Positions 2,306-60,132 of a stretch of DNA of 64,000 nucleotides are shown piece after piece. Numbering within the stretch: the first letter of the stretch is position 1; each line of letters starts with the position of its first letter. This stretch comes from Okamejei kenojei (taxonomy: Eukaryota): contig CM069160.1 of assembly GCA_035221665.1 (NCBI GenBank), positions 22,382,001-22,446,000 of the forward strand. The letters run 5' to 3'. A program made the position numbers and the translations under genes. A model generated the notes under the pieces. That model saw nothing but the letters and a program-made list of their open reading frames with translations, was not told the origin of the DNA and made no database searches.

Positions 2306-2444
2306 CAACATCATTCCGAAGAAAGGTTTCGGCCCGAAACGTTGCCTATTTCCTTCGCTCCATCGATGATGCCTCACCCGCTGAGTTTCTCCAGCACTTT
2401 TGTCTACCTTCCATTTCCCAGCATCTGCAGTTCCTTCTTAAACA
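1546..2444 (+). mobile_element. Penelope-like element 3' fragment: GIY-YIG endonuclease plus terminal repeat (pLTR)
   Basis: RVPPVLTFHP...TFPCNRKRCYSC...FTCTSSNLIYCIRCSRCQLIYISETK...RFAEH...PVAQHFN, then poly-C and the terminal repeat with a degenerate hammerhead core at 2316-2343. Confidence 0.88.
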
Positions 2445-2449
2445 CCATT

Positions 2450-3342
2450 AACCAAGGGGCAAACTGTTGACCTCATCTCAGTCCTAAATTGCTTATCCCT
2501 CATAGTTAAACTGTGACCCCTAATTCTGGGCTCCCCAACATCGGCAACATCTTCCCTGCATTTAGCTTGTCCAATCCCTTAAGAATATTATGTGCTTCGA
2601 TAAGATCCCTTCAAAATTCTTCTCATCATTCTAAATTCCATTCAATATAAACCCATTCGATCCGTTCTTTCATCATATGTAAGTGCCGCCATCCCGTAAA
2701 TTAACCTGGTGAAGCTACACTGCACTCCCTCAATGGCAAGAATGTCCTTCCTCAAATTAGGAGAACAAAACTGCACACAATACTTCAGGTGTGGTTTCAC
2801 CAGGCCCCTTTACAACTTCAGTAGGAATATAGATATATTCTTTCAGAAATATATATTCTTTCATCACGTCATCACTGATTGCTGGGATATCAGGACTTTC
2901 ATATGAGGAAAGACTGGATAGACTCGGCTTGTACTCGCTATGATTTAGAAGATTGTGGGGGGATCTTATAGAAACGTACAACATTCTTAAGTGGTTGGTC
3001 AGGCTAGATGCAGGAAGATTGTTCCCGATGTTGGGGAAGGCCAGAACAAGTGGTCACAGTTTAAGGATAAGGGATAAGCCTTTTAACACCGAGATGAGAA
3101 AAACATTTTTCACACAGAGAGTGGTGAGTCTCTGGAATTCTCTGCCACAGAAGGTAGTTGAGGCCAGTTAATTTGCTATATTTAAGAGGGAGTTAGATGT
3201 GGCCGTTTTGGCTAAAGTGATCAGGGTGTATGGAGAGAAGACAGGTACAGGATACTGAGTTGAATCATCAGCCATGATCATATTGAATGGCTCGAAGGGC
3301 CGAATGGCCTACTCCTGCCCCTATTTTCTATGTTTCTATGTT
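2450..3342. mobile_element. Two CR1 3' fragments in opposite orientation (about 2450-2825 minus, about 2868-3342 plus)
   Basis: [27 protein letters not shown]-type ORF2 C-terminus on both strands, with a (tttctatg)n tail at about 3325-3342. Confidence 0.85.
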
Positions 3343-4349
3343 CTAATATCATTGACGTGAATTTTTGTTCGTTCTTCCAGCCACTAACATTCCGCGTCCT
3401 GTAAGTTTTTTTTTCTGAATTTTCTCAAACTTCAAGAAATTTGTGAACTTTATAAGTGTCCCCTTAGATATTTCTTGACTTGGGTAAATATAGTTATGAA
3501 AATGGATTACTCGAAGTTGTCTGCTGAATGAACGACAAACAGCATCACTCGCTCTACAGAAAATACTGTCGCAAATTATTCCCAGTTTGCTGAAGAGGAC
3601 AAATTCATACGTTACCCAACTCCACGCGAAGCGATTCGTCTGCCAATGAATAAAAATAAGATTTCAGAAGCTTGTAAATCTTTAATCTAGCACAATCAGA
3701 AGGTGGTCACTCGCCATGCGCCTTGTTAATTGATTAATATGTGAAATACATTAGAGGATAAATTGGTTGTGTCTGATCGTATTATTTCACTGCCATCTGC
3801 ACACTCAATTTATGGGTATTCAATAATATGGGTATTCTTTTTGCGAACTCCCGACTATCCTTTAATGTCTAAATCACAGGTGGATCTCTGCGTGAAGCAG
3901 CCTGCATTCACGCAGTTTATTATCCCTGCAAAGCCGATATATTGAGCCAGGAATCTGGTCATCCAGACAGCAGGATGCAGTCAACGCCAAGGCTCCGTGG
4001 GGGTGGACCATGGTCCCAGGTCCTTCCGCTTCTGGACATTTAGAGTGATGCCTTTTCTGGACATTACCAAACAAGGGATATCACCTCCGGGAGTAAATGA
4101 GTGGCAACTGGCAAGGATATTTTGACTGATGATAGGTGCGAACACGACTGAATGTATGAACATATAGACACTGTGAATGTATGAAGAGTTCCCCCACAAA
4201 TATTGTGTCATATATATTCGTATTTTCAACAATGATTATTTCGGGGTAAAATAATCTCCAAGCGTGCTCCTGAGTCACACCGCAACATGTCAAAATAGTC
4301 ACCCGACATATTTTGTCTTCACTTTCGCTTTCGTTCTGAAATGAAATAA

Positions 4350-8856: not shown

Positions 8857-8950
8857 AATACCGAGACATGCTCGTGTCAATCAAAGGTAGGCAAAAATGC
8901 TGGAGAAACTCAGCTGGTGAGAGAGCATCTATAGGGCGAACGAAATGGGC

Positions 8951-8978
8951 GACGTTTCGGGTCAAGACCCTTCATCAG
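8951..8978 (-). ncRNA. Minimal type-I hammerhead ribozyme motif in a Penelope-derived terminal repeat
   Basis: Minus strand reads CUGAUGA-A-GGGUC-UU-GACCC-GAAA-CG-UC: conserved core, helix II, palindromic ACGU in place of helix III, GUC triplet. Helix I is weak or absent. Confidence 0.6.
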
Positions 8979-9574
8979 TCAATCGATATCTTCATGTCAA
9001 TCGACATCAGTGGAGAAATGTTTCTCAACATTGATAATCTTGCTGGAACTTCAGCTAAATAAGCACAGATATCAGAATTGATCAAAGTTTAACAAGTCGT
9101 ATTTATCCTACACCGATGTAGGCCTATTGAATATTTAATAATTGTTGTGTTTAAAAAAAATCAAACCTAGCAGCTTCCTTTTTTTTGCTCTCCACGTCAA
9201 TTGTTGTTAACGCTTTCTAATGACGTTCCGTTATTATTGAGAACAAAAGGTTCTACACAACCTCCTCGGCTTCCGTGTCCCATGGTAAAAATTTAACAAA
9301 GAAAGTTAATTGAATTGTCGAAACAAGGAGTTGCAGATGCTGGTTAAAACAGAAAAGGACACAAACTGTTGCAGTAACTCAGCATGTCTTCTTCAGCCTC
9401 GTTGTCGGTGAAGGGGCGGTGGGGGGGGGGGGGGGGGGGGGGGAGCTGGCACAGGAGAGAGGCAGGACAAAGCGTGGCGGTTGACAGGTCGGCATCCTCA
9501 TTTTCATTCTCTTGCATATTCCCCGCAACCCACTGAATTCACAGCAGATCAAAAATCAAAATAATGTTTAACCG

Positions 9575-16780: not shown

Positions 16781-16784
16781 TTTA

Positions 16785-17505: not shown

Positions 17506-18745
17506 GGGCTTGAAATTACGGTTCCCCGGGCGCCAATGGCCATCTTAAGTCCCGCCGGGCAACCAAAGCCGTGTCATTTTGCCCTGGCTTGGCAAGCATG
17601 TTCACCTAGCAAGCATAAGTGGAGTATAGCGGTGCCTAACGGCAGCAGCTCGACTGCAGTTCATCTGTCTTTTTTTATTTTTTGTCTCGTTAGATGTATG
17701 TTTTTTGGTTTTAATTTATATTATTGGTTAGCTGTGTATATGTGTGGGTTGGGGGTGGGGGTTGGGGGGATCTGTTTAATCTCTACCCTGCACGGGGAGC
17801 CAACTTTTCCCTGTCGGGTCTCCGGTGTCTTTGGGCAGAACATCGTGGAGCCGGCGGCGGCCTCCAACCGGAACCAACCTGAGGGATCTAGTGGCGAGCC
17901 TGCGGACTCGCCATCGCGGAGCTGGCCGACATCAGAGCTGGGAGAGCTGTGGTGGCGCGCGGCTGCAACCCGACTTCGGAGCTTCGGATGCTCCGACCAC
18001 AGGCCCGATGGACAGGAACATCGGGAGCTCACAGGTCCCTGGTGGGAGACTGCTTTTCGGAGGTCCCGCAATGGCATCTTCTCCCGCCGGAATCGTGGGG
18101 TTTAAATGACTCGGAGCGGGGCATAACATCGCCCGGCGCAGCTTAAACGGCCGCGGGACTTACCATCGCCCGCTGGGAATTTAACATTGTGAGCCCCAGT
18201 CGCCTCGACGCTGCATTTGGACTGCTGGACTGCGGGAGAAGAACAAAGGAAGATATAAGACTTTTGCCATCACAGTGAGGAGGTGTTGGAGATTCACAGT
18301 GATGGATGTTTGTGTAAATTGTGTTAAGTGTGTGTCTTGGTTTTTTTTTGTAATGTCATGACTGCAGGAATGAGATTTTGTTCAAACCTTGTCTGTTTGA
18401 ATGACAATAAAGGCATTCTATTCTATTCCATACTATAAGCCCACCTCGCTGCGTGCAGGATGCTATTACTGTTAAATTCCTGTTACTATGGGGATCATGA
18501 CAGAAGCCTCCTTCCTTGTGGTGATCCCTGGAAGCGACGATGTGATGCACTCTGTGACGCGTTGGGCGTCTTTAAGGTAGACAAAAATGCTGGAGTAACC
18601 AAGCGCGTGAGGCAGCAAGCATCTACGGAGCGAAGGAAATCGGCGACGTTTCGGATCGAGACCCTTCTTCAGACTTTGTTGTTTTTAATGCACGCCTTTA
18701 TTTTGATCATGTATATGTAATATTTGTGAATGTGATTGTTTACTG

Positions 18746-18855: not shown

Positions 18856-20251
18856 TCGTTAATCTGTACTTCTCTGAGGTGGAAACATTAAATATTAGGT
18901 ATTTTTTTATGTTGTATTTTTAATATAATGTATTCATTTAAAAAATAAAGGAATGTTGATGCATGTTATATCCAAGTCAGTTGCATTTATGAGCTCATAC
19001 CATAGTTCAATATATCCTGTAGTGCAAACAGCTGCTGCCAACATTGTATAGGTTATTGTTTTGTTTAGTTGCTAATACACGGCTATACACAACAAAATGG
19101 TCTTATGATTTAGATTTCCTGCAATCTGATGTGTAATCTGAATTGTCACTTACTGTAGTTTTTATTGCCTTTTTCCAAAAACAATTAAAGTTTAATTCCT
19201 GATCAGTTTCCTTACTTTTTTCACATTCTTTTAACAGTTTCAGATTTTGCCTGAATATTTGTCCAAGCAGGAAGGGTCCAATGAATCACTCCTGGTCTGT
19301 CTCAGCATTTTCTTTTCTGCAAGTTTAGTTCAGCAAACAAAACTGTTATTGTTCCGTGCAAAGCAATGGGAGCTGGTCAGGAAACAAAACATTCAGTGAA
19401 ACAAAGTTGACGTCAAACTGTCATTGCAACTCCCATTCTCCCCTCTCCTTAAGTTTTGTCGGGTCTCAACTTTCATTCAAATCATCTGCGAGCCCTTGAT
19501 TCATCTTCTCATTGCCAACCCCCAAGGTACCAACACCATCTTACCTTGGATAGCAATCCTAGACCTAACCCCCAATACCTTTTGTTCGTTTGCTCCCTCT
19601 AGTCCCAGCCTATCTGACACCACATCTTGGCTGCCAACATCATTGTCAAATGGAGTAGTAATTGCCTTACTTGAGGTCCAACTCTTGGTGGGAGATGTTC
19701 CAAAGTCAGGGCAGCCCAAGGGATGAGGCAAAGAAAAGAAATAAACCTTGAGATAAAGAGTGCGAGATGTTTGAAGACACGGACACAAAGACAATAAGTG
19801 CAAAATGAAAAGGTAAAGCAGTTACATGAAGTTGCTAAATGCCTCAATTATGAATGAGGTTTCATATTCCTTTTAAAATGAAGTAAAATGGCTTAATTGA
19901 GGATCTTGTTGGGGAGATTAGGAGAAACGTACCTTCAAGAGGATGCCCTGAAATTGAGATGGACACATTCAGAGGTGCTGGTTGGAAACATTGATTCCAC
20001 AGGTAGGGTATAATAACCCAAAGCATTTCTTCACCAGAACAGTAGTTGAGAATTGATAACGGAAAGAGAAGTGTGTAAATCCAAGGTAGGTTGAGATTTA
20101 TTAGATGGCGAGCAAAATGTTGGTAGGACCCGTGTCTACTCCAGTTCAGTCTGTTTCCTAATGTTTGTCTTTTTCTCAATTTAACATTATCTGTAAATAT
20201 TCCATGCCACATTAGGGTTCTTGTAGCCTAATTAACACCTACTGGTAATCA

Positions 20252-20473
20252 AAAATGCTGGAGACTCTCAGCGGGTGACAAGGCAGCATCCATGGAGCGA
20301 AGGAAATAGGCAGCTTTTCGGGTCGAGACCCTCATTCAGATGTCGGAAGAAGGGCCTTGACCCGAAACGTGGCCTATTTCCTTCACCCAATAGATGCTGC
20401 CTCAGTCACCCGCTGGGTTTCTCTAGCATTTTTGTCTACCCTCGATTTTCCAGCATCCGCAGTTCCTTCTTAA
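20252..20473. mobile_element. ORF-less inverted-pair Penelope pLTR insertion
   Basis: Two pLTR arms in inverted orientation, flanked by the direct repeat acctactggtaatca (20237-20251 and 20474-20488). Confidence 0.8.
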
Positions 20474-20874
20474 ACCTACTGGTAATCAGCTCACTGTTAA
20501 ACGTGATTCCATGAATCGCACTTAGAGATAAATACTCATTATCAATGTGTACAGTAAAGTACCTTAGATATATTTACAAAAATATATGTATAAATGTAGA
20601 AACGCATGATAGTTTATTTAAACAGGAATTAACTCCAAATGCCCCACAAGTAACCTTACTCTATTTACATGAGTAACCAGCCAGCTTTCTCATTCTTTGG
20701 TGTGAGGATTTAAATAATGATGTAAAATAAAAACTACTTCTAGTGGAAAAGTACAACGGACAAGCGAAGTACGGTAGATGTGAATAATCAGAAATTTAAA
20801 AAATTGCACTCAGCGGGTCAGGCAGTTGGTGAAATAACCCAATTAACATTTAAGGGTGCTGATCTTACTTGGGA

Positions 20875-24680: not shown

Positions 24681-24692
24681 GGCATTCAGATA

Positions 24693-38424: not shown

Positions 38425-38541
38425 CAGTTGGCGCGATCGAGGTCGATCCCCAGCAAGAGGCTGTCAGATCCACAATGTCTACGTCGTGGAAAGAGATAAC
38501 AAAACGTTATTCCAACCCCCCCCCCATATAATACAAAACTA

Positions 38542-40117: not shown

Positions 40118-41305
40118 TAAAGGTACACTAAAACATACATTTAACAACAGACTAAAAACAACATAGAAGAAAACGAAGAGACAGACTGTTGGTAGATTCT
40201 TTAAGCCAATTGGCACCCACATGGTCTCTGTGTTGGGCTCCCACATGATCTCCATATTGGATAGCATATTTACATGTGCACAGTAACACAGTGTTTCCAA
40301 TTAACATAACATGTGATTTGCACAGGGACCGCGGGGCATAACCCTTCAATAAAATTCAGGGAGCAGCTGTATTTAATTATTTTCATTAACCTTCCCTATG
40401 TTTCTTTATCATTTTTTCTGTTAACGGATCATGTATATGAACACTTGAAAATTTTGTAAAGTTTAGGTAACTGGTTGTAATTATGCTCTGGTCATGCCCA
40501 TGGACACTTGGAGAGGTTCTGCCTCCTTAAGATGCCTGTGGAAAACGTAATAGTTTCATCGTAATGAAATAACTAAGATCCAGAAGAATGGGGGTCTCTT
40601 GTGTCGCTAGAGTCCGAGAGTCAACCATGCCTGCTTTATTCTAGTTTACTGAATTGAAAACATTTCATCATGTACCCAAGTGCGATTGGAATGTGCTTTT
40701 GCTTGTCAGAATAGGAAATGGTGCTGCGAAGGAGTGCTGCACTTCCCATTTCAAGTCATTATGAGTGCCAAAGAGCACATGTGAGTAAGTAATGTGAATT
40801 TGCGCAGGAATAAAATGTCTGCCCACTAATGATTCCAAATGAACGGGTTTGACCTGGCACTTTAGAAAGGATACTTTGATGCACGGATGTGGAAATGAAC
40901 AGGCATTTCTCTAGTGGGTGCCTAACCCATACTAATTTTTGTGGCATTGTTCCACACCAGATATATGGCCATCAGAATAATGGTTACGGCTTCTTGAAAT
41001 CAGATTGCAATCATTGAAGAATTAGCATCAGTTGTGAGACCCTCTTGCAAAATGCATGAAGTGTGAGGCACATGTGCATTGTTGCGTCTGGTTGGTTTTT
41101 TGTTTTTTTTTTTGCATTTGTGCTCTTTTCCTTAAAGTTAGCCATAAAAGCCAAGAAAGATGTCTCACAAATATTGCCAGAATTGAGAAGAATTTGGGAT
41201 TCAAATCCAGGATGACCATGTTATAACCATATAACCATATAACAATTACAGCACGGAAACAGGCCCTCTCGGCCCTTCCAGTCCGTGCCGACCATTTGTT
41301 TTCCC

Positions 41306-44165
41306 CTAGTCCCATCTACCTGCACTCAGACCATACCCCTCCATTCCCTTCATGTCCATATACCTATCCACTTTACTCTTAAATGTTAAAATCGATCCTG
41401 CCTCCACCACTTCTGCTGGAAGCTGATTCCACACAGCCACCACCCTCTGAGTAAAGAAGTTCCCCCTCACGTTACCCCAAAACTTCTGTCCCTTAATTCT
41501 CATGTCATGCCCTCTTGTTTGAATCTTCCCTACCCTCAATGGGAAAAACGTATCCACGTCAACTCTGTCTATCCCTTTCATCATTTTAAAGACCTCAATC
41601 AAGTCCCCCCTTAACCTTCTGCGCTCCAAAGAATAAAGACCTAACTTGTTCAACCTTTCTCTGTAACATAGTTGCTGGAACTCTGGCAACATTCTAGTAA
41701 ATCTCCTCTGTACTCTCTCTATTTTGTTGACATCCTTCCTATAACTAGGCGACCAAAATTGTACACCATACTCCAGAATTGGTCTACCAATGCCTTGTAC
41801 AATTTTAACATTACTTCCCTACTCCTATATTCAATGCTCTGATTTATAAAGGCCAGCACACCAAAGGCTTTCTTTACCACCCTATCTACATGCGATTCCA
41901 CCTTCAGGGAACTATGCACAGTTATTCCTAGATCCCTCTGTTCCACAGCATTCCTCAATTCCCTACCATTTACCATGTTCTTCCTATTTTGATTTGTCCT
42001 GCCAAGATGTAGCACTTCACACTTAACAACATTAAACTCCATCTGCCATCTTTCAGCCCACTTTTCCAAATGGCCCAAATCTCTCTGTAGACTTTGAAAG
42101 TCTACTTCATTATCCACAACACCACCTATCTTAGTATCATCTGCATACTTACTTATCCAATTTTCCACCCCATCATCCAGATCATTGATGTACATGACAA
42201 ACAACAGTGGACCCAACACAGATCCCTGAGGCACCCCACTGGTCACCGGCTTCCAACCTGACAAACAGCCATCCACCATTACTCTCTGACATCTCCCATT
42301 CAGCCACAGTTGAATCCATCTTGCTACTCCGCCATTAACACCCAAAGATTGAACCTTCTTAACCAACCTTCCATGGGGAACCTTGTCAAAGGCCTTACTG
42401 AAATCCGCTTCAAAAAATTCAAGAAGGTTTGTCAAACATGACCTTCCAGGCACAAATCCATGTTGACTGTTCCTGATCAGACCCTGTTTATCCAGATGCT
42501 TATATATATTATCTCTAAGTATCCTTTCCATTAATTTGCCCACCACTGACGTCAAACTAATAGGTCTATAATTGCTAGGTTTATTCTTTGAACCCTTTTT
42601 AAACAATGGAACAACATGCGCGGTACGCCAATCCTCCGGCACTATTCCCGTTTCTAATGACATTTGAAATATTTCTGTCATAGCTCCTGCTATTTCTACA
42701 CTAACTTCCCTCAATGTCCTAGGGAATATCCTGTCAGGACCTGGAGACTTATCCACTTTTATATTTTTCAAAAGTGTCAGCACTTCCTCCTCTTTGAATT
42801 TCATAGTTTCCATAGCTACTCTACTTTTTGCCCTTAACTCACAGAGTTCAATATCCTTCTCCTTGGTGAATACCGAAGAAAATAAATTGTTCAATATCTC
42901 CCCCATCTCTTTTGGCTCTTTAGATACCATGGTTCTCTAATGGTCCAATTTTATCCCTCGTTATCCTTTTGCTATTAGTATAGCTGTAGAAACCCTTTGG
43001 GTTTACTTTCACCTTTCTTGCCAAAGCAACCTCATATCTTCTTTTAGCCTTCCTAATTTCTTTCTTAAGATTCTTTTTACATTCTTTGTACTCGTCTAGC
43101 ACCTCATTTACTCCATGCCTCCTATAATTATTGTAGATATCTCTCTTTTTTCGAAACAAGTGTCCAATTTCCCTTGAAAACCATGGCTCTTTCCAATTTT
43201 TACTATTTCCTTTCAACCTAACAGGGACATAAAGATTCTGTACTCTTACAATTTCCCCTTTAAATGTCCTCCATTTCTCTTCTACATCCTTCCCATGAAA
43301 CAATGTGTCCCAATTCACTCCTTTAAAATCCTTATGCATTCCCTCAAAGTTAGCCTTTCTCCAATCAAAAATCTCCACCCTAGGTCCAGTTCTGACTCTC
43401 TCCATAATTATATTGAAACTAATGGTATTGTGATCACTGGTGCCGAAGTGCTCACCAACGCATACCTCCGCATATCTCCGTCACCTGACCTGCCTCATTT
43501 CCTAACAGGAGGTCCAGCACTGCCCCTTCTCTGGTCGATACCTCTATGTACTGCTGCAATAAACTATCCTGCACACATTTTACAAACTCCAAACCATCCA
43601 GCCCATTTACAGAATGTGTTTCCCAGTCTATTTTTGGAGAATTGAAATCTCCCACAATCACTACCTTGTGCTTACTACTAATATCTGCTATCTCCTTACA
43701 CATTTGCTCTTCCAATTCTCGCTCCCCATTTGGCGGTCTATAATACACCCCTAAAAGTGTTGCTACACTATTCCCACTTCTCAGTTCCACGCAAATAGCC
43801 TCCCTAGACGAGCGCTCTAATCTATCCTGCCAAAGCACTGCTGTAATATCTTCTCTGACAAGCAATGCAACACCTCCCCCTCTGGTCCCTCCAATTCTAT
43901 CACACCCGAAGCAACGAAATCCTGGAATATTTAGTTTCCAATCACAGCCCTCCTGCAACCATGTTTCACTGATTGCCACAACATCATATTTCCAGGTGTC
44001 AATCCAGGCTCCAAGTTCATCCACCTTACTTACAATGCTCCTAGCATTAAAATATACACATTTTAGAAACCCACCATCCCTTATTCTCTGTCTATTATCT
44101 TTTTCATCTTTCTCGCCTACATTTTGGATTCCGAGTGCTTCCCTTCTCTGCCTCTTGCCCCACAC
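41306..44165 (-). pseudogene. CR1 ORF2 (APE endonuclease plus reverse transcriptase), disrupted
   Basis: NARSI, AISETWL, YYRPPN, GDFN, KSPGPD, NYRPISLTS, QHGF, DFSKAFDKVPH, GVPQGSVLGP, KYADDTK. Confidence 0.93.
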
Positions 44166-44210
44166 CCTGACCCCTAGCCCCCTCTACCCGAGTCCCTCCC
44201 CCCAGCCTTT

Positions 44211-45141
44211 CTAGTTTAAAGTCTCCCCAGTAGCATTTGCAAATCTCCCTGCCAGGATATTGGTCCCCCTCGGGTTCAAGTGCAACCCGTCCTTTGTGTA
44301 CAGATCATGCCTTCCCCAAAAGAGGTCCCAGTGATCAAGAAACTTGAATCCCTGCCCATTGCACCAGTCCCTCAGCCACGCAATTATCCTCCACCTCATT
44401 TCATTCCTACTATCACTGTCACGTGGCACAGGCAGTAATCCTGAAATCGTTACCCTTTTGGTCCTTCTCCTTAACTTTCCCCCCGACTCCCTAAATTCTC
44501 CCTTCAGGACCTCGTCACTTTTTCTGCCTATGTCATTGGTACCTATGTGTACCACAACATCAGGCTCCTCTCCCTCCCTTATCAGAATCTTTTGGACACG
44601 TTCTGACACATGCGAGACCCTGGCACCAGGGAGGCAAACTATCATCCGGGTCTACCGACTGCGTCCACAGAATCGCCTATCCGACCCCCTAACTATAGAG
44701 TCCCCTATTACAATTGCCCTCCTCTTTTTGCAACCCTTTTGAGCATCAGGGCCGGTCTCTGTGCCGGAGGCCCGGCCGCTGTTGCTGCCCCCAGCTAGGC
44801 TGTCCCCTCCAATCGTACTCAAACCCGAGTACCTATTTTCCAGGTGTACGGTCACGGGTACTCTCTAGCCCCTGCCTCTGCCCCTTGCCCTTCCTAACCG
44901 TGACCCACTTGTCTGCCTCCTGTGGTTTGGGAGTGACTACCTCCCTGTAGCTCCTCTCTATTACCTCCTCACTCTCCCTGACCAGATGGAGGTCATCGAG
45001 CTGCTGCTCCAGGTTCCTAACACAGTCCTTTAGGAGCCCCATCTCGACACACCTGGCGCAGATGTGGACGTCTGGAGGGCTATCAGATTCCCTGACCTCC
45101 CACATCTGACATCCAGAACAGTACACTGCCCTGGCCTTCAT
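44211..45141 (-). pseudogene. CR1 ORF1: N-terminal zinc finger/coiled coil plus SGNH-type esterase, frameshifted
   Basis: CSGC...HICARC, then AIVIGDSIVR, CLPGA, HIGTND, DGLHLN (SGNH blocks I, II, III, V) split over ORFs 44833-45141, 44652-44855 and 44211-44645. Confidence 0.85.
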
Positions 45142-45345
45142 ACTCCCCCCTTACACAGGATACAATATCAACACAATACAAAGTACACAACAAACTGCTG
45201 GAATCTGACTGCCAATCGGCTGCTTACCCTAGTCCACTTCCCACCAATCAGCTGCTTACCCTAGTCCACTTCCCACCAATCAGAGGCTTCCTAAAAAAAA
45301 CCCACTTCTCCAAATGGAATGTTATGGATTTCGGTTGATTTTTAA

Positions 45346-45581
45346 CGGTCGGGTGTCGCTCCTCCCCCTCCTTCTCTTCCAACGGCTCCTGTGGGCTTCT
45401 GAAAAAACAAGCCCCGCGCTGGATTTTAAACCTTACCGGTCGGGTGTCGCTCCTCCCCCTCCTTCTCTTCCAACGGCTCCTGTGGGCCTCTGAAAAAACA
45501 AGCCCCGCGCTGGATTTTAAACCTTACCGGTCGGGTGTCGCTCCTCCCCCTCCTTCTCTTCCAACGGCTCCTGTGGGCCTC
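45346..45581 (-). repeat. 91-bp tandem monomers (about 2.6 copies) at the CR1 5' end
   Basis: Units start at 45346, 45437 and 45528 (cggtcgggtgtcgctcctccccctcc...). A 32-bp CCAAT-containing duplication lies at 45212-45283. Confidence 0.9.
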
Positions 45582-45782
45582 ACCAAGCAGAAAGGGATGA
45601 GAAGAGTCCCCTGGATTCCTGCGGTAATTTTGCCTGGGTCCATCAAAAAATAAACTGTCGGAAGAACTCTGCGTGTTAGGCAGCACCAGGAAACAAAATT
45701 GCTCCGCAACTTTTTCCCGTCTTCCAACAGCTTCAACTATGCACGTGTGTACAAAATGCACACCCATGTACTAATTAAATGT

Positions 45783-45984
45783 TTAAGAAGGAACTGCAGA
45801 TGCTGGAAAATTGAAGGTAGACAAAAATGCTGGAGAAACTCAGTGGGTGCAGCAGCATCTATGGAGCGAAGGAAATTGGCAACGTTTCGGGCCGAAACCT
45901 TTCTTCAGCCTGAAACGTTGCCAATTTCCTTTGCTCCATAGATGCTGCTGCACTCGCTGAGTTTCTCCAGCATTTTTATCTACC
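45783..45984. mobile_element. Palindromic Penelope pLTR insertion
   Basis: Inverted arms flanked by tactaattaaatgt at 45769-45782 and 45985-45998. Confidence 0.85.
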
Positions 45985-47668
45985 TACTAATTAAATGTGC
46001 CCTGTTTTTTGTGTGGACAATGAGCTCCAGCTCATACTAACATCTGGGTGAAGATATTTTTTTCTCATGTCAATTTCTTCTGATTTTAAATCTGTGTCCC
46101 AAAATGGATTTTGAGTAATGGTTTCTACTTATTTCCTTTATCCGCATTCCACATAACTTTATGTATTCAAAGTCGATATCTGCCCACTCTGCTCCGTCCT
46201 AACAATAAAAAAAACACATCCTTCATACCATTCATCGATAGACACAAAATGCTGGAGTAAATCAGCATGGCAGGCAGCCTCTCCAGAGAGAAGTTTCGGG
46301 TTGAGACCTTTCTTCAGACTCTTTACCATTCTTTTAGCTAAAATATCCAGCGCAAGCAAAGTCTTAGTAAATCTTAGTAGGTCATTTGTGGAAAGAGACA
46401 AACTTTCATTTTGGAAAGCCAATGTCAGAAACTCTGATAAAGTGTCTCAGAAAAGAAAAAATCTGTTTTGTTCCACAGTTGCTGTCTGGCAAACTGACTG
46501 TTTCTACCACTGTTTACATTTAAAATTCCAGTATCTGCCGTTTTCAAGATTTTCCATTCTTTTAAATTTGCATTGTACAGTCTTGAAACAATTGTATCTC
46601 ATCATGTTGTGCCCAGCTGTGCTATAATAATGGTGCACATATTTCCAACCCCAAAGCTTCCTGCCACTGCATGTCATAGCATGGCTAAATAGAGGAAAGC
46701 ATCTGGTGTGCCCTTTTAACCACCGTTATTTACCCTGCCCTACAACTTTTTAAAGATCTGTGGACATGCACACACCAATATCCATTTATCTCTGATTCAG
46801 TAATTGTATATCCCCTTGGAAATCAAAGGTTTTCATTTTCTCAAATCTGGGTCACCATTACCTCCTTTAGTGAGACTCTTAATTTGGTGAATGTTGTTTA
46901 GTCTGATAACAGTATCTCACATGGGCCGAATTGTAATTCATCTGCAATGTCCGTGTTGAGGCTAAAATTGAAAGTAGAACAATTACCATGCATTTTAAAA
47001 TAAAACCTTTGTGAAACAATTACATCTGTTATATTTATAAATCCTTGTGTTTCACTGCCTCTTGAACTAGAGCATTGTCCTTGATCTCAATTGATGCTTC
47101 ATGTTATGTTTGTGTCTTTGTTTTTATTCTAATATAAGGGTCTTTTATTGCCCCAGTATTATAACTTTCTGTTGTTTGTAAGCTGTGTGTAGTTTGCCAA
47201 TATTATTGTGTCAGCGCTATCTCCAAGTCATTATTTGTGTTTGAATTTTTCTTTTGTGATTAGAGTTACAAAATCTTGCATTTGTGCATTGTTTTCACCC
47301 TATTAACAGCTCTTCAAGATCAAGTGGAAGTACTATCCAAATCTTTCTTAACCCGAGCTCAACCCTATGCTCAAGTTGATGATATTTCTGATTCTTTGGA
47401 TGGTAATAATTTTGGGGTTCCTTGGCACAATAAGGAATTGTTCATGCATTTGGAAGCCTTTGCCCCAAAGACCCTGGGGATCATTGCCTGAGGATGGTCT
47501 TGATATGGTCCTGATTCATAAATAGAGCTATTGATTTTAGAAGGACTGTCATTCAGATGTTTCTCATGACTTCAGGATATCCCAATATACCCTGCAAGCA
47601 ATTTGAAGAGTATTGTAGGAAGTGGGGAGCAAATTTCCACACAGTAAACTTGAAAAGCAGTAGTGGTA

Positions 47669-48650
47669 TAATAGACAATAGGTGCAGGAGTAGGCTCTCC
47701 GGCCCTTCGAGCCAGCACCGCCATTCATTGTGACCATGGCTGATCATCCACAGTCAGTACCCTGTTCCTACCTTCTCCCCATATCCCCTGACTCTGTTAT
47801 CTTTAAGAGCCCTATCAAGCTCTCTCTTTAAAGTATCCAGAGAACCGGCCTCCACCGCCCTCTGAGGCAAAAAATTCCACAGACGCGCCACTCTGTGTGA
47901 AAAAATGTTTCCTCGTCTATGTTCTAAATGCCTTGCCCCTTATTCTGAAACTGTGGCCCCTGGTTCTGGACTCCCCCAACATCGGGAACATGTTTCCTGC
48001 CTCAAGTGTGTCCAAACCGTTAATCTTATGTTCAATATCTCCTCTCATCCTTCTAAATTCCAGAGTATACAAGCCCAGCAGCTCCATTCTCGCAGCATAT
48101 GACATTTCCACCATCCCAGGAGTTAACCTTGTGAACCTACGCTGCACACCCTCAGTAGCAAGAATTTGATGAAGATTTGTATGAAGATTGACTAATCTGG
48201 CCAAGATTTACAGAAGGAAGCCTAGGTGCATCATCCTCAACCCGAAATTTCACCCATTCCTTCTCTCCAGAGATGCTGCCTGTCCCGCTGAGTTATTCCC
48301 GCATGTTGTGTCGATCTTCAGTGTAAACCGGCATATGCAGTTCCTTTCTGACTTTTTTTAATTTTGCCTTTAACACGGGGTCAGAGCCGTACATCTGGCT
48401 AGGTTAGGAATAGGTGCAGGAGTAGGCTCTTCGGCCCTTCGAGCCAGCATCGCCATTCATTGTGACCATGGCTGATCATCCACAATCAGTACCCCGTTCC
48501 TGCCTTCTCCCCATATCCCCTGACTCCGCTATCTTTAAGAGCCCTATCAAGCTCTCTCTTTAAAGTATCCAGAGAACCGGCCTCCACCACCCTCTGAGGC
48601 AGAGAATTTCACAGACTCACCACTCTCTGTGTGAAAAAATGTTTCCTCAT
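47669..48650 (-). mobile_element. Two similar CR1 3' ends (about 47669-48165 and 48408-48650) separated by a degenerate pLTR
   Basis: Repeated aataggtgcaggagtaggctct..cggcccttcgagccagc CR1 3' UTR. Confidence 0.85.
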
Positions 48651-48654
48651 CTGC

Positions 48655-49610
48655 AGATGCTACCCAAACAAAATATGAGGTGCTGTTCCTCCAATTTGCG
48701 CTGCGCCTCACTCTGACGATGGAAGAGGCCCAGGTCAGATTGGGAATGGGAGGGGAAGTTAAAGTGCTAAGCAACCAGATCAGGTAGGTTAAGGCTGATT
48801 GAGCGGAGGTGTTCAGCGAAATGATTGCCGAGTCTGCATTTGGTCTTGCCGATGTACAGACGTTGACGCCAGGAACAGTGGATACAGTAGATGAGGTTGG
48901 AGGAGGTGCAAGTGAACCTCTGCCTCACATGAAAAGGACTGTCTGGGTCCTTGGATGGGGTCAACGCGGGAGGTAAAGGGCCACGTGTTGCATCTCCTGC
49001 GGTTGCAGGGCAAAGTACCTGGGGAGGGGGTGGTTGGGGTGGGAAGGGACGAGTTGAGAGAGTTGCAGAGTGTACAGTCTCTGCTGAAAACAGAAAGGGG
49101 TGAAGATGGGGAGATGTGGCCAGTAGTTGGATTCCGTTGGAGTTGTTGAAAGTGTTGGAGGATTATAGGCTGTACGCGACGGCTGATGGGGTGGAAGGTG
49201 AGGACAAGGGGGACTCTGCCCTTGTTGCGAATTGGGGGGGGGGGGGGGAAAGCAAGAGCCAAGCTATGGGATCCTCGATATCCCAATCTGACCTTTCTGT
49301 ACTGGGCCTCCTTCATTGTCTTGAGTGAGGCCCAGCGCAAATTGGCGGAGCAGCACCTCATATTTCGCATGAGTAGCTTACACCCCAGCGGTATGAACAT
49401 TGACTTCTCTAACTTCAAACAGTCCTTGCTCTCCATCCCCTCCCGCTTTCCAGTTCTCCAACCAGTCTTAATGTCGCCGATTACATTCTATCTCTGTCCC
49501 GGCCACTCCCCTGACATCAGTCTGAAGAAGGGTCTCGACCCGAAACATCACCCATTCCTTCAGACAGTTGCTGCCTGTCCTGCTGAGTTACTCCAGCATT
49601 TTGTCTATAT
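48655..49610. mobile_element. Penelope-like GIY-YIG fragment (minus, 48655-49235) and inverted 3' copy with pLTR (plus, 49278-49610)
   Basis: NKGRVPLVLTFHP...CNRRRCNT...FTCTSSNLIYCIHC..LYIGKT...FAEH on minus. Hammerhead-like core ctgaaga-a-gggtctcgaccc-gaaa-ca-tc at 49522-49549. Confidence 0.87.
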
Positions 49611-51450
49611 CGGGTGACGGATAAGCCTGGAGTCACCTCCCTGTTAACTGTTTCATTGTCCTCAATTCATGACTGAATGTGGATGATAGTGGACCTTTGG
49701 ACTGATCTCTTGATCTTCTGAGATTACTTTGATGTATTTTTGAGATGAGGAAAATAAAGGTTGTTGATAGCAGGGAATTAATTGGTCTGGGGATATCTGG
49801 GGGGTTTTTCAGCGGATAAACCCTCTGATGTACATTATGAGGTGGCCATGTAGTAGGTAAACTTAGTGGATTGGCAGTGGAACAGAGAACATTCTGAAGC
49901 TAGACGTTGATGTTGGGTGAGGGAAATGGCCTGGTATATTCTCTCCTAATGTAACCCTTCCAATTTCATCCACCATGCATGCTCAGTGTTCAAATTATAT
50001 TTGGGTGTAGATCCTATTTGGAACAATAGAGGCCAGAATTCTGTTTGCTGATGCTTTCGTATCTAAATCGATATGCTATATTTAAAAAAAAAATCTAGTT
50101 TCTATGTTTGATGGACGACTGGAATAGGATCAGATGTGCCACCCGGATATTGCTAGAACAGTTCATATAGCGGCTTGCATCTCTCTACAACCACCTTAAA
50201 ACATTCACCATCTGTGCTCTGTCATATTGTTTGCTGTATTCATCTTCCTTGCCGAATCACTTGTTTTTGTGGGGAATACTATTGAGTACATGGGTTTTGT
50301 ACCATTAATTTGGGTTGCCTATGTGGGTTGAGCAATATGATTAGTGTTAGAACTATGAGCAACCTAACTCTTCCTTAGTTCTATTGCCAATATTACCAGT
50401 GGTTCTCCTGGAAGGTTTTATTTAGTTCATGACACACAGGCTACCGCTATTTGTTCAACGTTGAGTTTATGAAGTCATGTAGCTCAGAAATGGGACCTTT
50501 GACCCACTGAGTCCATGGCAACCATCAACCACCCAGTTACAGTAATCCTAGATTAATGACTATTTTTACTATTGCTCACCTACTCTCTATGGGTAATTTA
50601 CTGTAGCCAATCTACCTACCAACCATTCTTGGGGATGTGGGTGGAAGCCTGAGAAATCCGAGAAAACCCAGGCAGACACAAGGAGAATGCATCTTCCCCC
50701 ACCAACAGCATCTGAAGTTGGGATTCAACCTGCTTTTGTAGCATTAGGAGGCGGCAGCTCCACGAACTGTGCCACAGCTACCTCTAATTCATATTAAATA
50801 GCCAAAATGCTGTGAAATTGATTAAAACTGCCAACAATATTCTATTGGGTTACCTTCTAATCCACAATAATTATTTAAAGAACAATGAAGCTAGGGCAGA
50901 ACGTTTCCTTACTTGGTAATAAACTTTATTGTGGTTAACAAAAAAACAGTGAGCTACATTAAATCCAACTAACACTCTATAATTGCATTACTGAAACTGA
51001 TTTCATATTCTGTTTCTTTTGTGACAAGCATTGGGTTACTTTTTATTTGTGCATGACTGTTTTGCAAAAAGTTAACTCGGCACCCATTGTTCATTGACAA
51101 CTGAATTGTATTTGGATCAAATATTCCAACGTTTTATTTCCCAATGAGCAAGTGTATGTTTTTCACACATTAATTATGATTTTTGCATTCCATCGCTCGG
51201 AGCTATCAAGCCAGTAATCTTGTGTAACAGCTGTGGCTTAAAAAAAAGCAAAGTCATCACTGCTCAAGAAATGAGCTTTGCACTTCCAGGCCTGGTTCAG
51301 ATATACAGTGAATATGTGCTGTGTTAGTTAATGTGATGTCTTTATATTGTTTGACAAGCGAAGCAAAGATCCTTATTGATGCTGATGTGTCAGCCAGTGC
51401 ATCTGGTTATTGTTCTTCATACTGATATTGTATTGCATCTCCTTTTAAAG

Positions 51451-52163
51451 GCAAACGGCTGCAAGTTGAACTGTCCAAGAGTCGGCTGCGGATGCAACCT
51501 GGGATGGGTGAAAAAAACGGCTGTTTCCGGTGTGGTAAAGAAGGCCACTGGTCTAAAGAGTGTCCCAAAGATCAAGGTGGTCTCGAAAGCAGTTTTGATG
51601 GCAACTTCTCACGCGATTACCTAGATCCTTTTTCGATGACCGCGCGCCCCATAGCTGGGTATGGAGACCGCCCTCTATACGATGAGCGATACGGGGCTGC
51701 TGACTACTACGAAAAGTATCGGGCAGGATCATATGGAGCAGTCGGAGATCCTTATGGACAAACAGCACAATATGCGGCAGTTGGCTCTTCCATGCGAGAT
51801 CGTATCCCCGGTGCGGTAAACCTATACGAGCGGCGGCCATTGTCGACTCCCCCTGCATATTACGGTCGCGACAGGAGCCCTATACGACGGCAAGCGCCCA
51901 TGTCTGCTGTGGGCAGTGGATATGGGTTCGATCGCGGTGGGCTTTCTCCATCTGCGTATGACCATACCAATACTGACGCGAGGGATGCGTACGCTCCCGC
52001 TCAGTACTCTGCAGCTCCGTACTCAGCAGCTCAGTATACTGCCGCGCAGTATTCTGCTGCCCAATACTCTGCTGCCCAGTACTCAGCTGCTCAGTACTCT
52101 GCCGCGCAGTACTCTGCTGCTGCCGCCGCCCAGTATCCTCGTGCTCAGTACCCCACATACTAA
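51451..52163 (+). CDS. rbm4: RBM4 coding exon 3: end of RRM2, CCHC zinc knuckle, RDRSP motif, Ala/Tyr-rich C-terminus, stop
   Basis: Acceptor ctccttttaaag|. Phase 1 continues as GKRLQVELSKSRLRMQPGMG..GCFRCGKEGHWSKECP, later YYGRDRSPIRR. TAA at 52161-52163 followed by donor AAG|GTGAGG at 52170. Spliced CDS 105+307+713=1125 nt = 374 aa plus stop. Confidence 0.95.
51996..52154 (+). repeat. Coding 15-bp tandem repeat, (A/P/R)AQY(S/T/P) x10, in the RBM4 C-terminus
   Basis: PAQYS AAPYS AAQYT (AAQYS)x5 AAA AAQYP RAQYP read directly from the sequence. Confidence 0.95.
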
Positions 52164-56460: not shown

Positions 56461-56785
56461 GTTTGCTTTGCATCGTGACGAGAGCCGCGGGTCCCCTTGG
56501 TACGTGCAGAAACTCGGGTCATATCTTTTGCTTGTTGGTTTTAGCGTGGACAAATGTTAGTGCAACACTAACTCTTAAAATATCGGTGTTAATTAGCTGC
56601 TGACTCATCTACTCACCAAATTGTGAGCGTTATTTTAAAAAATCTTTTTGGTTTTAATTTTTCTCTCTGGGTTTCATTTTGTGTTCAGCAGAAATGACTC
56701 GCGTAATTGTGAAGAATTTAAATCTGAAGCATTTGGATTTTCTGTAATGCGATTTACAATAAACAATCAGTATTCAGCCTGAGCG
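56461..56785 (+). other. rbm4: Probable non-coding terminal (3' UTR) exon of RBM4
   Basis: Strong acceptor ctgtcccttctttcgcag|G, non-repeat sequence, AATAAA at 56758-56763 followed by GT-rich sequence. Fits the donor 6 nt after the stop codon and the known RBM4 layout with a separate UTR exon. Confidence 0.65.
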
Positions 56786-57079
56786 TGTTGCGTCCGAGTT
56801 AATCTTTAAAACTGACCTGTAAAGGTATTCAGTGGTATCTTTGTCAGATTTATTAATGCACAGTCTCACCTGGTGGTATGTACGTTGGGGCTTACCATCT
56901 ATGCAGGGGTTTGCGATCAACTTCTATGGTGGCGTGCTGTCGACTTAGATTTTTCGAAGTAAAGACGAGGACGAAGTATGTTATAGTTAATTCTGCCGCT
57001 TGCTGCACCTTTCCAGCAACATGAACTCGTTGAACTGTTGTCTGCTCTAACAAATTTCAGAATAATTTGCTGTGGTTCC

Positions 57080-57985
57080 TAGTCAAAGTCAAGTCAAAGT
57101 TTATTGTCATGTGTCCCTGACAGGACAATGAAATTCTTCCTTTGCTTAGCACAACAAAACATAGTAGGCATTGACTACAAAACAGATCCGTGTGTCCATA
57201 TACCATTATATACGTAAATACACACATGAATAGATAAATTGATCAAGTGCAAATAACAGATAAAGGGGTATTAATGTTCAGAGTTTTGTCCAAGACAAGT
57301 TTAATAGCCTGATGGCTGTGGGGAAGTAGCTATTCCTGAACCTGGTCATTGCAGTCTTCAACCTCCTGTACCTTCTACCTGAAGGTAGCAAGAGGATGTG
57401 TGTGTGGCCAGGATGGTGTGGGTCCTTGATGATGATGCCAGCCTTTTTGAGGCAGCGACTGAGATAGATCCCCTCGATGGAAGCGAGGTCAGAGTCGATG
57501 ATGGATTGGGCAGTGTTTACTACTTTTTGTAGGCTTTTCCTCTCCAGGGCGCTCAAGTTGCCGAACCAAGCCACGATGCAACCGGTCAGCATGCTCTCTA
57601 CTGTGCACCTGTAGAAGTTAGAGAGAATCCTCCTTGACAAACCGACTCTCCGTAATCTCAGGAAGTAGAGGCGCTGATGAGCTTTCTTAATAATTGCATC
57701 GGTGTTCTCGGACCAGGAAAGATCTTCAGAGATGTGCACGCCTAGGAATTTGAAGCTCTTGACCCTTTCAACCATCGAACCATTGATATAAACAGGACTA
57801 CTTCCAAAGTCAACAATCAGTTCCTTGGTTTTGCTGGTGTTGAGGGCCAGGTTATTGTGCTGGCACCATATGGACAGTTGCTCAATCTCTCTTCTATACT
57901 CTGACTCATCCCTATCAGTGATACGTCCCACAACAGTAGTGTCGTCGGCGAACTTGATGATGGATTTCGCACTGAGACCGGCACG
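57080..57985 (-). mobile_element. Rex1/Babar-clade LINE 3' fragment
   Basis: KFADD, WCQHNNLALNTSKTKELIVDF, FKFLGVHISEDLSW, KKAHQRLYFLR, LLPSGRRYR, RFRNSYFPTAIRLLN, with (tgact)n tail. Confidence 0.87.
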
Positions 57986-60132
57986 GTAGAATAGCCTTTG
58001 ACCGGCTACTCATCATTAGGCTGCAAGCTAGAGTGTGTGTATGTGTGTGAGACTGTTTTCCTCATGAAGAATGGTTGGTCAGGTATGCGAGATGGACTCC
58101 AGCTTAGAAAATGAGGAGAGGACAGTGCAATTTTATTTCTGCTCATTTTTAGTGTGGGTGGTCATCACTGACACAATAGGGCAATTCACTGGGTTATTCC
58201 TGAGATTACAATCAAGGCTTAAGGTTGTTAAAAGCAAAATATGACAGATTATATAAATCTGAAATAAAAACAAGACTGCTCAACCGAATTAGGCAGGGAG
58301 ATCACATTTGACAGATATCAAATGTGCAAAGTCCAAAGACTTTCAGTGCTCAATGGGAGGAATTGGCAGTTTTCGTTTTCCATTGTGTGGATTAATCTTT
58401 TCAAAGTGAATTTTTATTTCTATGTTTCCTGATAATTAGTTAGTTTGGTAAGTTAAGTGCATACCTGCAAATTAGGGCCGCACAGTGGTGGAATTGCGGC
58501 CTTACAGCGCCAGAGACCCTTGTTCGATCCTGACTATGGGTGCCGACTGTACGGAGTTTCGTATGTTCTCCCTGTGCTAAAATTGGAGAATTGAATGTTT
58601 GTACCGTTGGGTTCTAAGCTACCCAAGTAGAATATGAGGTGCTGTACCTCCAGCTTGCTTGTAGCCTCACTGGAAATGGAAGCGGCCCAGTAGAGAGAGA
58701 GGTCTGTATGGAAGGCGAGTTAAAATGGTAGAAACAGGAAGGTCCAACAGGTGTGCTAACTTAATTTTAGGCTCTATAAGTGGTATCAGCCTTGACTAAA
58801 ATATGGACTGTACTGTGTTCATGCTCAAAGCTTGACAGATGGCTGAGTAGAGCTTTCAGTGAAATATCAATTTCGGAGTTATAATGGAACTTATGGCTAT
58901 TTTCGCAGCAGAGAAGCATGGGTGATGTTCTGGATGTCGTACTTAAAACCAAAGTAAATAATGTCTGGTGATGTTCCAGATATCATACTTAAAAGCACAG
59001 TAAATTAATTAAAATCATAGTCATACAGCATGGAAACATACCCTTTGACCCAACTTGCTCTTGCCGACCAAGATGCTCCATCTACACTAGTCCCAGCTGT
59101 CCCAGTTTGGCCTATTTCCCGCTAAACCTTACCTGTCCATGGACTGGTTAACAAACAACACAATAACAATAAAATAAACACCTGTCCAAATGTGTTTTTG
59201 TTTCTTTTTGATAATTATTCTCCTGAAAATGATTTGACAGGTGCTTTATAATGATGTTTTTGGATATCGGGCAAAGCCGCATACATCACCTCCACCTAAT
59301 TTCTGCTGAAAGTGAAGGAGGCTAAACACATATTTGATCTGCTAAAATCTACGGGTGAAAGTGGAGACACGAGGAGCTGCAGATGCTGGTTTACAAAAAA
59401 AAGACACAAGGTGCCGGCGTAACTCCGCGGGTTAGGCAGCACCTCTGGAGCACAAGGATAAGTGATGTTTTCAGCTCGGGACTCTTCGTCAGACTGCTCT
59501 GAAAGTGCTCTTGCAACGTTGCTGAAACTTTATTGTTGTTGTCTGTTTGCGTTGTTAAAAGCAAAGCTTAAACTTCATGTCCAATCCTAGATTCTCTGAG
59601 TAGGTTGTGGATCTTCTGTTTGATTTTTCGGGAAGATTTAGGAGTCAACCACGTTGCGTCACCGGAATCAATCTAGCCTAAGATGGGTAAGGACGGTGTT
59701 TTTACTTATCTCAATGGTGCAGTTTGTTTTGATTGAAAGGCTGCTGTAGTGATAACTCATTTCCCGGCTTTGATTTGAGTAATTTCACCATCAGTCAATC
59801 TAGTGACTGAACTGTTCCAACCAAACCGAGTCCCATTGTTACACATTATACATGCGTCTACCACTCACAATCGGTTTCAGGGGAAATTAGTTTGCTCTAT
59901 GTGAAGCAAAAACTTTTGTCATGGATTCAGTGTCCTTCACACATCATGGGCTTGCTTTCTGAGTAAATTGCCTGCTTATTGAGGATACTTTTAGGTTTCT
60001 GTCTTGCCACTGTATCATTGGTTGATGCAGTGTTGTCAGCAAGGTTCCTTTCTGAAAGTCCAACACTTTGCTTGACACTTTGTCAGTGATTATTTATAGA
60101 TTCTCTCATATAATAAACTAATAAACCAAGTA

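What the first reader, a model, noticed from the sequence alone, without database searches (positions are those of the whole stretch)
2316..59495. Dispersed family of Penelope terminal repeats each carrying a minimal, dimer-type hammerhead ribozyme core
Seen: a repeat of about 110-130 bp occurs more than 15 times (e.g. 2316, 8951, 10056, 12923, 18645, 20310/20344, 24587, 27068, 28368/28418, 29738, 30677, 36769/37056, 45881, 46290, 49522, 59463). Its conserved centre reads CUGA(A/U)GA-A-[GGGUC-NN-GACCC]-GAAA-CG-U(C/U/A). It sits directly downstream of GIY-YIG ORF ends (1546-2444, 24283-24680, 49278-49610), so it is the Penelope pLTR. Known: this is the hammerhead catalytic core (CUGANGA...GAAA...UH). 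Penelope-like elements are known to carry minimal type-I hammerheads whose helix III is replaced by a palindrome (here ACGU) and which cleave as dimers. An extra A between A9 and G10.1 is tolerated in some natural hammerheads. Inference: this lineage carries very many ribozyme-bearing repeats, several inside RBM4 introns. Helix I here is only 2-3 bp, so many copies may be inactive.
Basis: partly seen in the sequence, partly recalled or inferred. Interest (0 to 1): 0.72.

Follow-up and report, generated by a model that had tools for sequence, protein, structure and literature searches.

The report
Penelope stubs starting at their hammerhead
These repeats are the short end-pieces of a known kind of jumping gene that carries a known stripped-down self-cutting RNA motif; roughly a million mostly decayed pieces are estimated to litter this fish genome, and their ends suggest they were likely copied from uncut, capped RNA that begins right at the motif, so they are unlikely to cut host transcripts.

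Summary
Confirmed and largely known. The window holds 27 pieces of the repeat (0 in the reversed control); 10 keep the catalytic core, 4 the whole motif. It is the pseudo-LTR of a Neptune/Nematis-type Penelope-like element (RT plus GIY-YIG; 64-70% identical to named shark proteins), with the minimal hammerhead described in 2014. Distant relatives keep the core and covary in helices I and II, so the RNA fold is real; helix I here has only 2 bp. About 1.1 million pieces are estimated genome-wide; their cores decay like their flanks. Most are by-products: copying likely starts at +97 or +133 and runs to a fixed 5' end three bases before the core. At element-to-element joints an untemplated G precedes that end (78 versus 11 A/T), a TATA-like motif lies at -29, and ends show no peak at the cut site: templates were likely capped and uncut. 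Close pairs are mostly head-to-head inverted (85 versus 15 direct), not dimer-ready. No intact motif lies on the sense strand of the RBM4-like introns examined. Cleavage is untested. The scan reported this family and reading before, in this and other genomes.

The parts
1546..2310 (+). 5'-truncated, broken PLE remnant: RT-EN linker with C-x4-C-x2-C, GIY-YIG/CCHH endonuclease region, pyrimidine-rich 3' UTR
   Evidence: translation; 78-88% identical matches across the genome
2311..2455 (+). pLTR with tail; core broken (CCGAAGA)
8884..8980 (-). solo stub; core kept, helix I lost
18574..18676 (-). solo stub; whole descriptor met
20244..20475 (.). head-to-head inverted pair, one insertion with 14-bp target duplication; both cores broken
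24283..24680 (+). C-terminal endonuclease fragment, 3' UTR and pLTR; core kept, helix II mismatched
28305..28546 (.). head-to-head inverted pair (28395-, 28418+), both meet the descriptor; 8-bp target duplication; folds as one long hairpin; upstream of the RBM4-like promoter region
29133..52163 (+). RBM4-like host gene, coding exons at about 29128-29231, 33290-33560 and 51452-52163; a donor site follows at 52170, last exon not located
29673..29810 (.). inverted pair in intron 1; antisense copy has A9 changed, sense piece lacks CUGA; 13-bp target duplication
30589..30709 (-). intronic antisense copy; core kept, palindrome broken
36700..36800 (-). young stub, 100% identical to dozens of loci; A(+1)=36799 preceded by an extra G; C3=36796; predicted cut between 36769 and 36768; whole descriptor met; antisense to RBM4-like gene
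36801..37086 (-). upstream part of the same insertion: pLTR lacking CUGA, tail, 5' UTR and ORF start; 14-bp target duplication flanks 36700-37086
45780..45991 (.). inverted pair with 14-bp target duplication; antisense copy keeps core but no helix I; sense piece lacks core
49278..49610 (+). endonuclease C-terminal fragment plus pLTR; only sense-strand intronic copy with a core, palindrome broken (ACAU)
59368..59496 (-). old copy; core kept, helix II 2 of 4 pairs

Best explanation
The repeat is the pseudo-LTR of a Neptune/Nematis-type Penelope-like retrotransposon and carries the known minimal hammerhead motif; the element's RNA likely starts, capped, three bases before the core, and the roughly 100- and 135-base stubs likely arise when its reverse transcriptase starts inside uncut RNA and runs off that capped end. 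Steps: (1, shown) the motif follows the RT-endonuclease ORF and also opens full-length units about 170 bases before their ATG. (2, shown) 3' ends sit at about +97 or +133, 5' ends pile up at -4..+4, and insertions have target duplications. (3, inferred) +1 is a polymerase II start: TATA-like motif at -29, initiator-like CAGT, untemplated G read from the cap. (4, inferred) templates were uncut, since cutting after +31 would remove +1..+31 and, at the downstream pLTR, the copying start. (5, inferred from published work) the ribozyme is kept by selection only in active source elements, where it would cut slowly, as a dimer and with the element's protein, decapping or releasing the RNA; dispersed copies are neutral and mostly dead.
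For: ORF of 974 open codons with RVT_1 and weak GIY-YIG hits, motif 340 bases after its stop. Full-length units begin at the motif (L085, L094) and lead into an ORF starting MPTLKK. Of 30 young copies picked only on +38..+97: 13 end at -4..+4, 11 run on into the 3' UTR, 6 end further in, 1 of these at +32. 3' ends: 50 short, 32 tail, 1 continuing, of 83 scored among 105 loci. At short head-to-tail joints the base before +1 is G 78 times, A/T 11 times, where the element has C and G is 29% of non-C bases in the window. TATA-like motif starts at -29/-28 in 12 and 9 counts among 42 upstream-bearing copies. Breaks at the cut site 299 versus 180 and 278 at two neighbouring positions; 10 of 30 inspected are point changes and 9 inverted joints. 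Core decays like flank. Relatives at 45-55% protein identity: core downstream of the ORF at 95-141 bases in 11 of 30 loci with enough sequence; 88% of cells paired, covariation 0.67 versus 0.20 shuffled and at most 0.18 slid. Published: uncut RNA is the dominant template, two internal starts define the tail, cleavage needs the protein (PMC11167929); untemplated G as likely cap copy in L1 and SVA (PMC4859970).
Against: Genome-wide the base before +1 is C 19,669, G 1,271, A/T 2,309: G is only 36% of non-C, a weak excess; the A/T class is partly inflated by duplicated loci (8 of 15 inspected fall into 3 groups with the same flank). 5' ends are spread over -4..+4, not one base. The poly-C subfamily lacks the TATA-like motif. 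No raw RNA reads were available, so start, cap and cut are unobserved. 19 of 30 relatives show no core at the expected place (one further match at 449 looks like chance). The alignment for one search was chosen with a descriptor that demands pairing, so it leans to the structure, and several rows are related. Lower change in the motif than in the flank between subfamilies is not significant (3 of 28 versus 16 of 59 columns, p=0.10).
Confidence: 0.72

Rival explanations
1. The fixed 5' end marks a place where the reverse transcriptase stalls or falls off after unfolding the hammerhead (or where upstream pyrimidine-rich RNA blocks it), and the extra G comes from terminal addition of C, not from a cap; the real start lies further upstream.
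For: 5' ends are spread over several bases; genome-wide G excess is weak; 11 of 30 young copies and 19 of 30 C-class copies run straight through the site.
Against: TATA-like motif at the canonical distance; G 78 versus A/T 11 at element joints; full-length units also begin there. Run-through copies are expected from the downstream pLTR of a transcript.
Confidence: 0.15
2. The dispersed copies are active dimeric ribozymes that cut host pre-mRNAs such as that of RBM4.
For: About 9x10^4 copies keep all motif features (43 of 296 covering pieces in 1.3 Mb); one piece per 2.5 kb gives potential partners; 514 short direct duplications exist; published dimers cleave weakly in vitro (PMC4209133).
Against: Helix I is 2 bp; the double-hammerhead fold is 13 kcal/mol above the best dimer fold and the monomer does not fold into it; no selection on copies; no intact sense copy in the RBM4-like introns examined; inverted pairs bury the core.
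Confidence: 0.07
3. The CAG just before the core is a 3' splice site, as in Drosophila virilis Penelope where the intron ends at helix I, and stubs are copies of spliced RNAs.
For: A pyrimidine tract and CAG precede the core; the D. virilis precedent (PMC4209133); the genome-wide A > G > T order at -1 is compatible with exon ends.
Against: Target duplications end within 14 bases of +1 in 12 of 30 G-class and 6 of 15 A/T-class loci, leaving no room for a captured exon; G dominates at element joints; no shared upstream exon was seen.
Confidence: 0.04
4. The stub is a separate SINE- or retrozyme-like element that amplifies from its own transcripts or circles.
For: The stub segment is about 1000-fold deeper than the ORF start in laid contigs; non-LTR retrozymes derive from pLTRs (10.64898/2026.07.22.740005).
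Against: Stubs are identical to pLTRs of ORF-bearing copies, lack the upstream TATA-like motif, do not start at the cut site and are not tandem arrays as a rule.
Confidence: 0.05

Closest known systems
Minimal hammerheads (min-HHR) in pLTRs of metazoan Penelope-like elements (Cervera and de la Pena 2014, PMC4209133; parts 1-2 of 4 of the text read, supplements not seen)
   Same: Type I core without helix III, extra base between 9 and 10.1, G10.1-C11.1, palindromic 15.2-16.2, location in pLTR, reported in Xena, Poseidon and Neptune elements of fishes, mostly as single motifs of truncated elements, some as close opposite-strand pairs.
   Different: Helix I 2 bp (4-5 bp in Schistosoma; 2 bp also in D. 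virilis); helix II 4 bp; copy number far above the 4,000-9,000 given for coelacanth and Xenopus (different search methods); cartilaginous fishes not named in the parts read.
Poseidon element PAc of Anolis carolinensis (Frangieh et al. 2024, PMC11167929; parts 1-2 of 4 read)
   Same: Two internal reverse-transcription starts that define a 30-40 bp tail; both target strands extended; uncut RNA as main template; no reads ending at the cut site.
   Different: PAc is Penelope/Poseidon clade and its ORF starts inside the ribozyme; here the ATG is about 170 bases downstream and the linker zinc finger is present. A capped start at the ribozyme edge is not described in the parts read.
Drosophila virilis Penelope promoter (Schostak et al. 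2008, PMC2377424; passages read)
   Same: Promoter and start site in the pLTR with an initiator.
   Different: TATA-less, with a 75-bp intron 46 bp after the start that ends at helix I; here a TATA-like motif at -29 and no intron evidence before the motif.
Animal non-LTR retrozymes (Li, Clavereau and Pollet 2026, 10.64898/2026.07.22.740005; parts 1-2 of 5 read)
   Same: Type I hammerhead, pLTR origin, present in one chondrichthyan.
   Different: Retrozymes are tandem arrays; these are solo stubs and inverted pairs still identical to ORF-linked pLTRs.

Membership tests
EN+ Penelope-like elements | Single ORF with RT and C-terminal GIY-YIG endonuclease | tested here: met
   L063 ORF: RVT_1 E 4e-6 and GIY-YIG E 0.003, both under Pfam cut-offs; YIDD motif and EN motifs align with 15 relatives
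EN+ Penelope-like elements | pLTR formed by partial tandem or inverted copies | tested here: met
   L087, L092, L096 partial tandems; 85 head-to-head pairs
EN+ Penelope-like elements | Optional 30-40 bp tail; target-site duplications | tested here: met
   ends at about +97 and +133; duplications of 8-14 bp in the window, up to 25 bp elsewhere
Neptune or Nematis clade | CX2-5CxxC zinc-finger linker between RT and EN (PMC8557442 passages) | tested here: met
   C-x4-C-x2-C in L063 and the window remnant
Neptune clade as against Nematis | Placement in an RT tree with named references | not tested
   no named reference elements were at hand
Minimal hammerhead of PLEs | Core CUGANGA, GAAA, UH; extra base after A9; G10.1-C11.1; palindrome in place of helix III | tested here: met
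   39 descriptor hits in 1.3 Mb, all of this family, 0 in 3 shuffles; invariant columns in 13 sequences
Minimal hammerhead of PLEs | Helices I and II supported by covariation | tested here: met
   across relatives (with selection caveat); within this genome only one-sided changes (U-A/U-G)
Minimal hammerhead of PLEs | Self-cleavage after H17 as a dimer | not testable with these tools
   needs an assay; no genomic peak at the cut site
Rfam hammerhead families | Match to a curated model | tested here: not met
   no hammerhead hit at E<=5; expected for a form without helix III
Non-LTR retrozymes | Tandem arrays with a hammerhead in each unit | tested here: not met
   15 direct pairs within 50 nt among 523 pieces; a few short arrays exist

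The most novel reading that the evidence does not exclude
In these elements the hammerhead is the first 34 bases of a capped mRNA and works as a protein-gated decapping switch and dimer contact: two RNAs pair through the ACGU palindrome inside a dimeric RT-endonuclease particle, uncut RNA is copied to the cap, and the enzyme then hops back to the 3' edge of the ribozyme fold (+33 to +38), which would explain twin-primed inverted pairs, short duplications and a million stubs, and give the long-unexplained ribozyme a role.
Probability: 0.2. Interest if true: 0.7.

Novelty: new member of a known kind. Interest (0 to 1): 0.33.

Why it matters
The ribozyme itself is a known feature. What adds value is the record in the junctions: what Penelope hammerheads do is stated to be unclear (PMC8557442), and this genome offers over 23,000 exact copies of one 34-base variant whose ends point to a capped start at the ribozyme edge and to uncut templates, in line with the one in vitro study. 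That makes the start-site and decapping ideas testable with one CAGE or RACE experiment. It also says that the estimated 3.6% of this genome made of these pieces is unlikely to be a large pool of active ribozymes in host introns.

Tried and rejected
Rfam scan: no hammerhead hit; miRNA hits at 45873-45927 only reflect an inverted pair. Genome-wide cap-G test gave only a weak excess; the joint-restricted test was decisive. One DNA search returned nothing because the words are too common. Short duplications ending at the cut site (ligation or jump onto the 5' product): only 2 of 78 end at +31; a by-eye tally peaks at +37/+38, with none at +40..+43. First structure count was misregistered by one column in helix I and redone; the first dimer energy evaluation failed and was redone. 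Sequencing runs were contigs only, with RNA status guessed, so they show neither start, cut nor expression. A polymerase III B-box reading of helix II was considered by eye and dropped (two mismatches to the recalled consensus). Orientation bias in introns was not tested: too few copies. Lunse et al. (PMC5785218) is not held; seen only as cited in PMC6765202. No structure prediction or complex job was run.
Full report
Numbering: +1 is the A of the CAGT just before the core; C3 is +4, residue 17 is +31, the predicted cut lies after +31.

1. Observation. The repeat is real. A profile from 11 window copies finds 27 pieces, none in the reversed window; the bare core pattern gives 11 matches against 3.97 expected. 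Of the 27, 10 keep the catalytic core and 4 meet a full descriptor (core, 4-bp helix II, palindrome, helix I of at least 2 bp). Composite insertions are single events flanked by 8-14 bp target duplications. Rfam has no matching hammerhead model.

2. The parent element. The window is part of a 2.76-Gb genome. The endonuclease remnant at 1562-2095 has 118,972 first-look candidates. Locus L063 holds 974 open codons with RT and GIY-YIG matches, a C-x4-C-x2-C linker and the repeat 340 bases after the stop; 43 places were listed for the 101-base window copy at 36700-36800, 40 of them 100% identical over 99-101 bases. The most similar named proteins are from Chiloscyllium punctatum (70%) and Stegostoma tigrinum (64%), so the host is likely a cartilaginous fish. 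Of 14 loci fetched with the ORF's 5' part, two begin at the motif, two just inside it, three are partial tandems, and all these lead into an ORF whose ATG lies about 170 bases after +1. This is the published anatomy of an EN+ Penelope-like element; the linker places it in Neptune or Nematis (PMC8557442, passages); no tree was built.

3. Abundance and decay. In 130 evenly spaced stretches (1.299 Mb) there are 523 pieces, 0 in the reversed control: about 1.1 million genome-wide, 3.6% of bases. 296 pieces cover the motif; 122 keep the core and 43 all features, about 9x10^4 genome-wide. One 34-base variant occurs 23,249 times exactly. Against their subfamily majority, core positions differ at 6.1% and invariant flank positions at 6.8% (p=0.30; 203 of 238 spanning copies fell in clusters of 6 or more), so inserted copies are neutral. 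The three large subfamilies share the core; a fourth cluster of 6 shows CpG decay at G12; 3 of 28 motif columns versus 16 of 59 flank columns differ (p=0.10).

4. Is it a hammerhead fold? In 80 metagenome loci encoding relatives a descriptor finds 18 hits in 276 kb, 15 on the sense strand, against 0-1 in each of 20 shuffles. Of 34 loci whose match reaches the protein's end, 30 have at least 200 bases downstream; 11 show the core 95-141 bases after the match, one a likely chance match, 18 none. In an alignment of 2 window copies and 11 relatives the core, the extra A and G16.2-U16.1 are invariant and helices I and II covary: 88% of cells paired, 28 cells with double changes, 0 of 500 shuffles as high, slid controls far lower. 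The rows were chosen with a pairing descriptor and some are related, so this is support, not proof. Relatives have 3-6 bp in helix I; this family has 2. The monomer does not fold into the hammerhead shape, and the double-hammerhead fold lies 13 kcal/mol above the best dimer fold (5-15 in six relatives). All motif features are those described by Cervera and de la Pena (PMC4209133), who found no monomer activity and low dimer activity for a Schistosoma motif.

5. How the stubs arise. 3' ends fall at about +97 (50) or +133 (32), 1 continuing, among 83 scored of 105 loci, matching the two internal reverse-transcription starts that define the tail in the Anolis element (PMC11167929). Among 30 young copies chosen only on +38..+97, 13 end at -4..+4, 11 continue into the 3' UTR and 6 end at +7 to +32; in the even sample 248 of 476 3'-intact pieces reach the first four model positions used and only 6 start at the four positions around the cut. 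Three signs point to a capped start at +1. A TATA-like motif starts at -29 in the young subfamily and at -29/-28 in about half of 42 upstream-bearing copies, though not in the poly-C subfamily. Full-length units begin there. At short head-to-tail duplications (514 genome-wide), where no host DNA is involved, the base before +1 is G in 78 and A or T in 11 cases (C, the element's own base, was not counted in these two searches); untemplated G is read as a likely copy of the cap in L1 and SVA (PMC4859970, passages). Against: over all junctions G is 1,271 versus A/T 2,309, only slightly above base composition, although the A/T class includes duplicated loci. Target duplications end close to +1, which argues against a spliced-on exon.

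6. Uncut templates. Any copy that joins +31 to +32 came from uncut RNA. Breaks exactly at the cut site number 299, against 180 and 278 at neighbouring positions, and of 30 inspected 10 are point changes and 9 inverted joints. This agrees with the in vitro result that uncut RNA is the main template and that cleavage needs the protein (PMC11167929). The upstream piece of short duplications ends mostly at +33..+38 (by-eye tally: about 64 of 78; 2 at +31), just past helix I; I have no tested explanation.

7. Dimers and RBM4. Neighbouring pieces within 50 bases are head-to-head in 85 cases, direct in 15, tail-to-tail in 6; the window's pair at 28300-28515 folds as one hairpin of -198 kcal/mol. The RBM4-like gene is on the + strand. 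Of 10 pieces between 28970 and 52170, four keep a core; the only sense one (49522) has a broken palindrome, and the only intact one (36796) is antisense. The numbers are too small to infer selection.

8. Novelty. Motif, location and dimer requirement are in print (PMC4209133; review PMC6765202, passages). A capped start at the ribozyme edge was not found in my searches (listings only, plus the papers named), but the library lacks most subscription papers, one key paper could not be opened, and supplements were not read. I reached this reading before opening the scan's notes; they show that the scan made the same reading several times in this and other genomes, which is not independent support. 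Verdict: new member of a known kind, with a useful but unproven mechanistic footnote; interest 0.33.

Noticed in passing
window 12931-13400 and 20353-20810: About 450 bases, including the same decayed pLTR and its downstream flank, occur twice: a local duplication, so these two pieces are one insertion.
   Followed up: partly
window 51990-52160: The RBM4-like protein ends in a run of short Ala/Gln/Tyr/Ser repeats (weak Pfam Decapeptide hit), with a splice donor just after the stop codon.
   Followed up: no
window 29128-29231 and 33290: An intron splits the first RRM of the RBM4-like gene; from recall the mammalian gene has both RRMs in one exon.
   Followed up: no
window 41306-44651, minus strand: A fairly complete LINE with a GDSL-esterase ORF1 region, apurinic endonuclease and RT inside the RBM4-like intron.
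   Followed up: no
window 14868-15506 and 25284-25925: Tc1/mariner transposase fragments (DDE_3; HTH_Tnp_Tc3_2, HTH_SB).
   Followed up: no
G000 C2:52296732-52296977 and C3:86332031-86332339: Short tandem arrays (49- and 44-base period, 5-7 joints) made of little more than the hammerhead: the best natural candidates for direct dimers or incipient retrozymes.
   Followed up: no
genome-wide short duplications: The upstream piece ends mostly at +33..+38 with a sharp drop after +39, the 3' edge of the ribozyme fold; unexplained.
   Followed up: partly
L063:8847-10001: An ORF that resembles a retroviral envelope gene by a recalled motif; only seen, not tested.
   Followed up: no
L087/L092 about +54 to +230: An upstream ATG in the pLTR opens a short frame that overlaps the main ORF start out of frame; it could dampen translation.
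   Followed up: no
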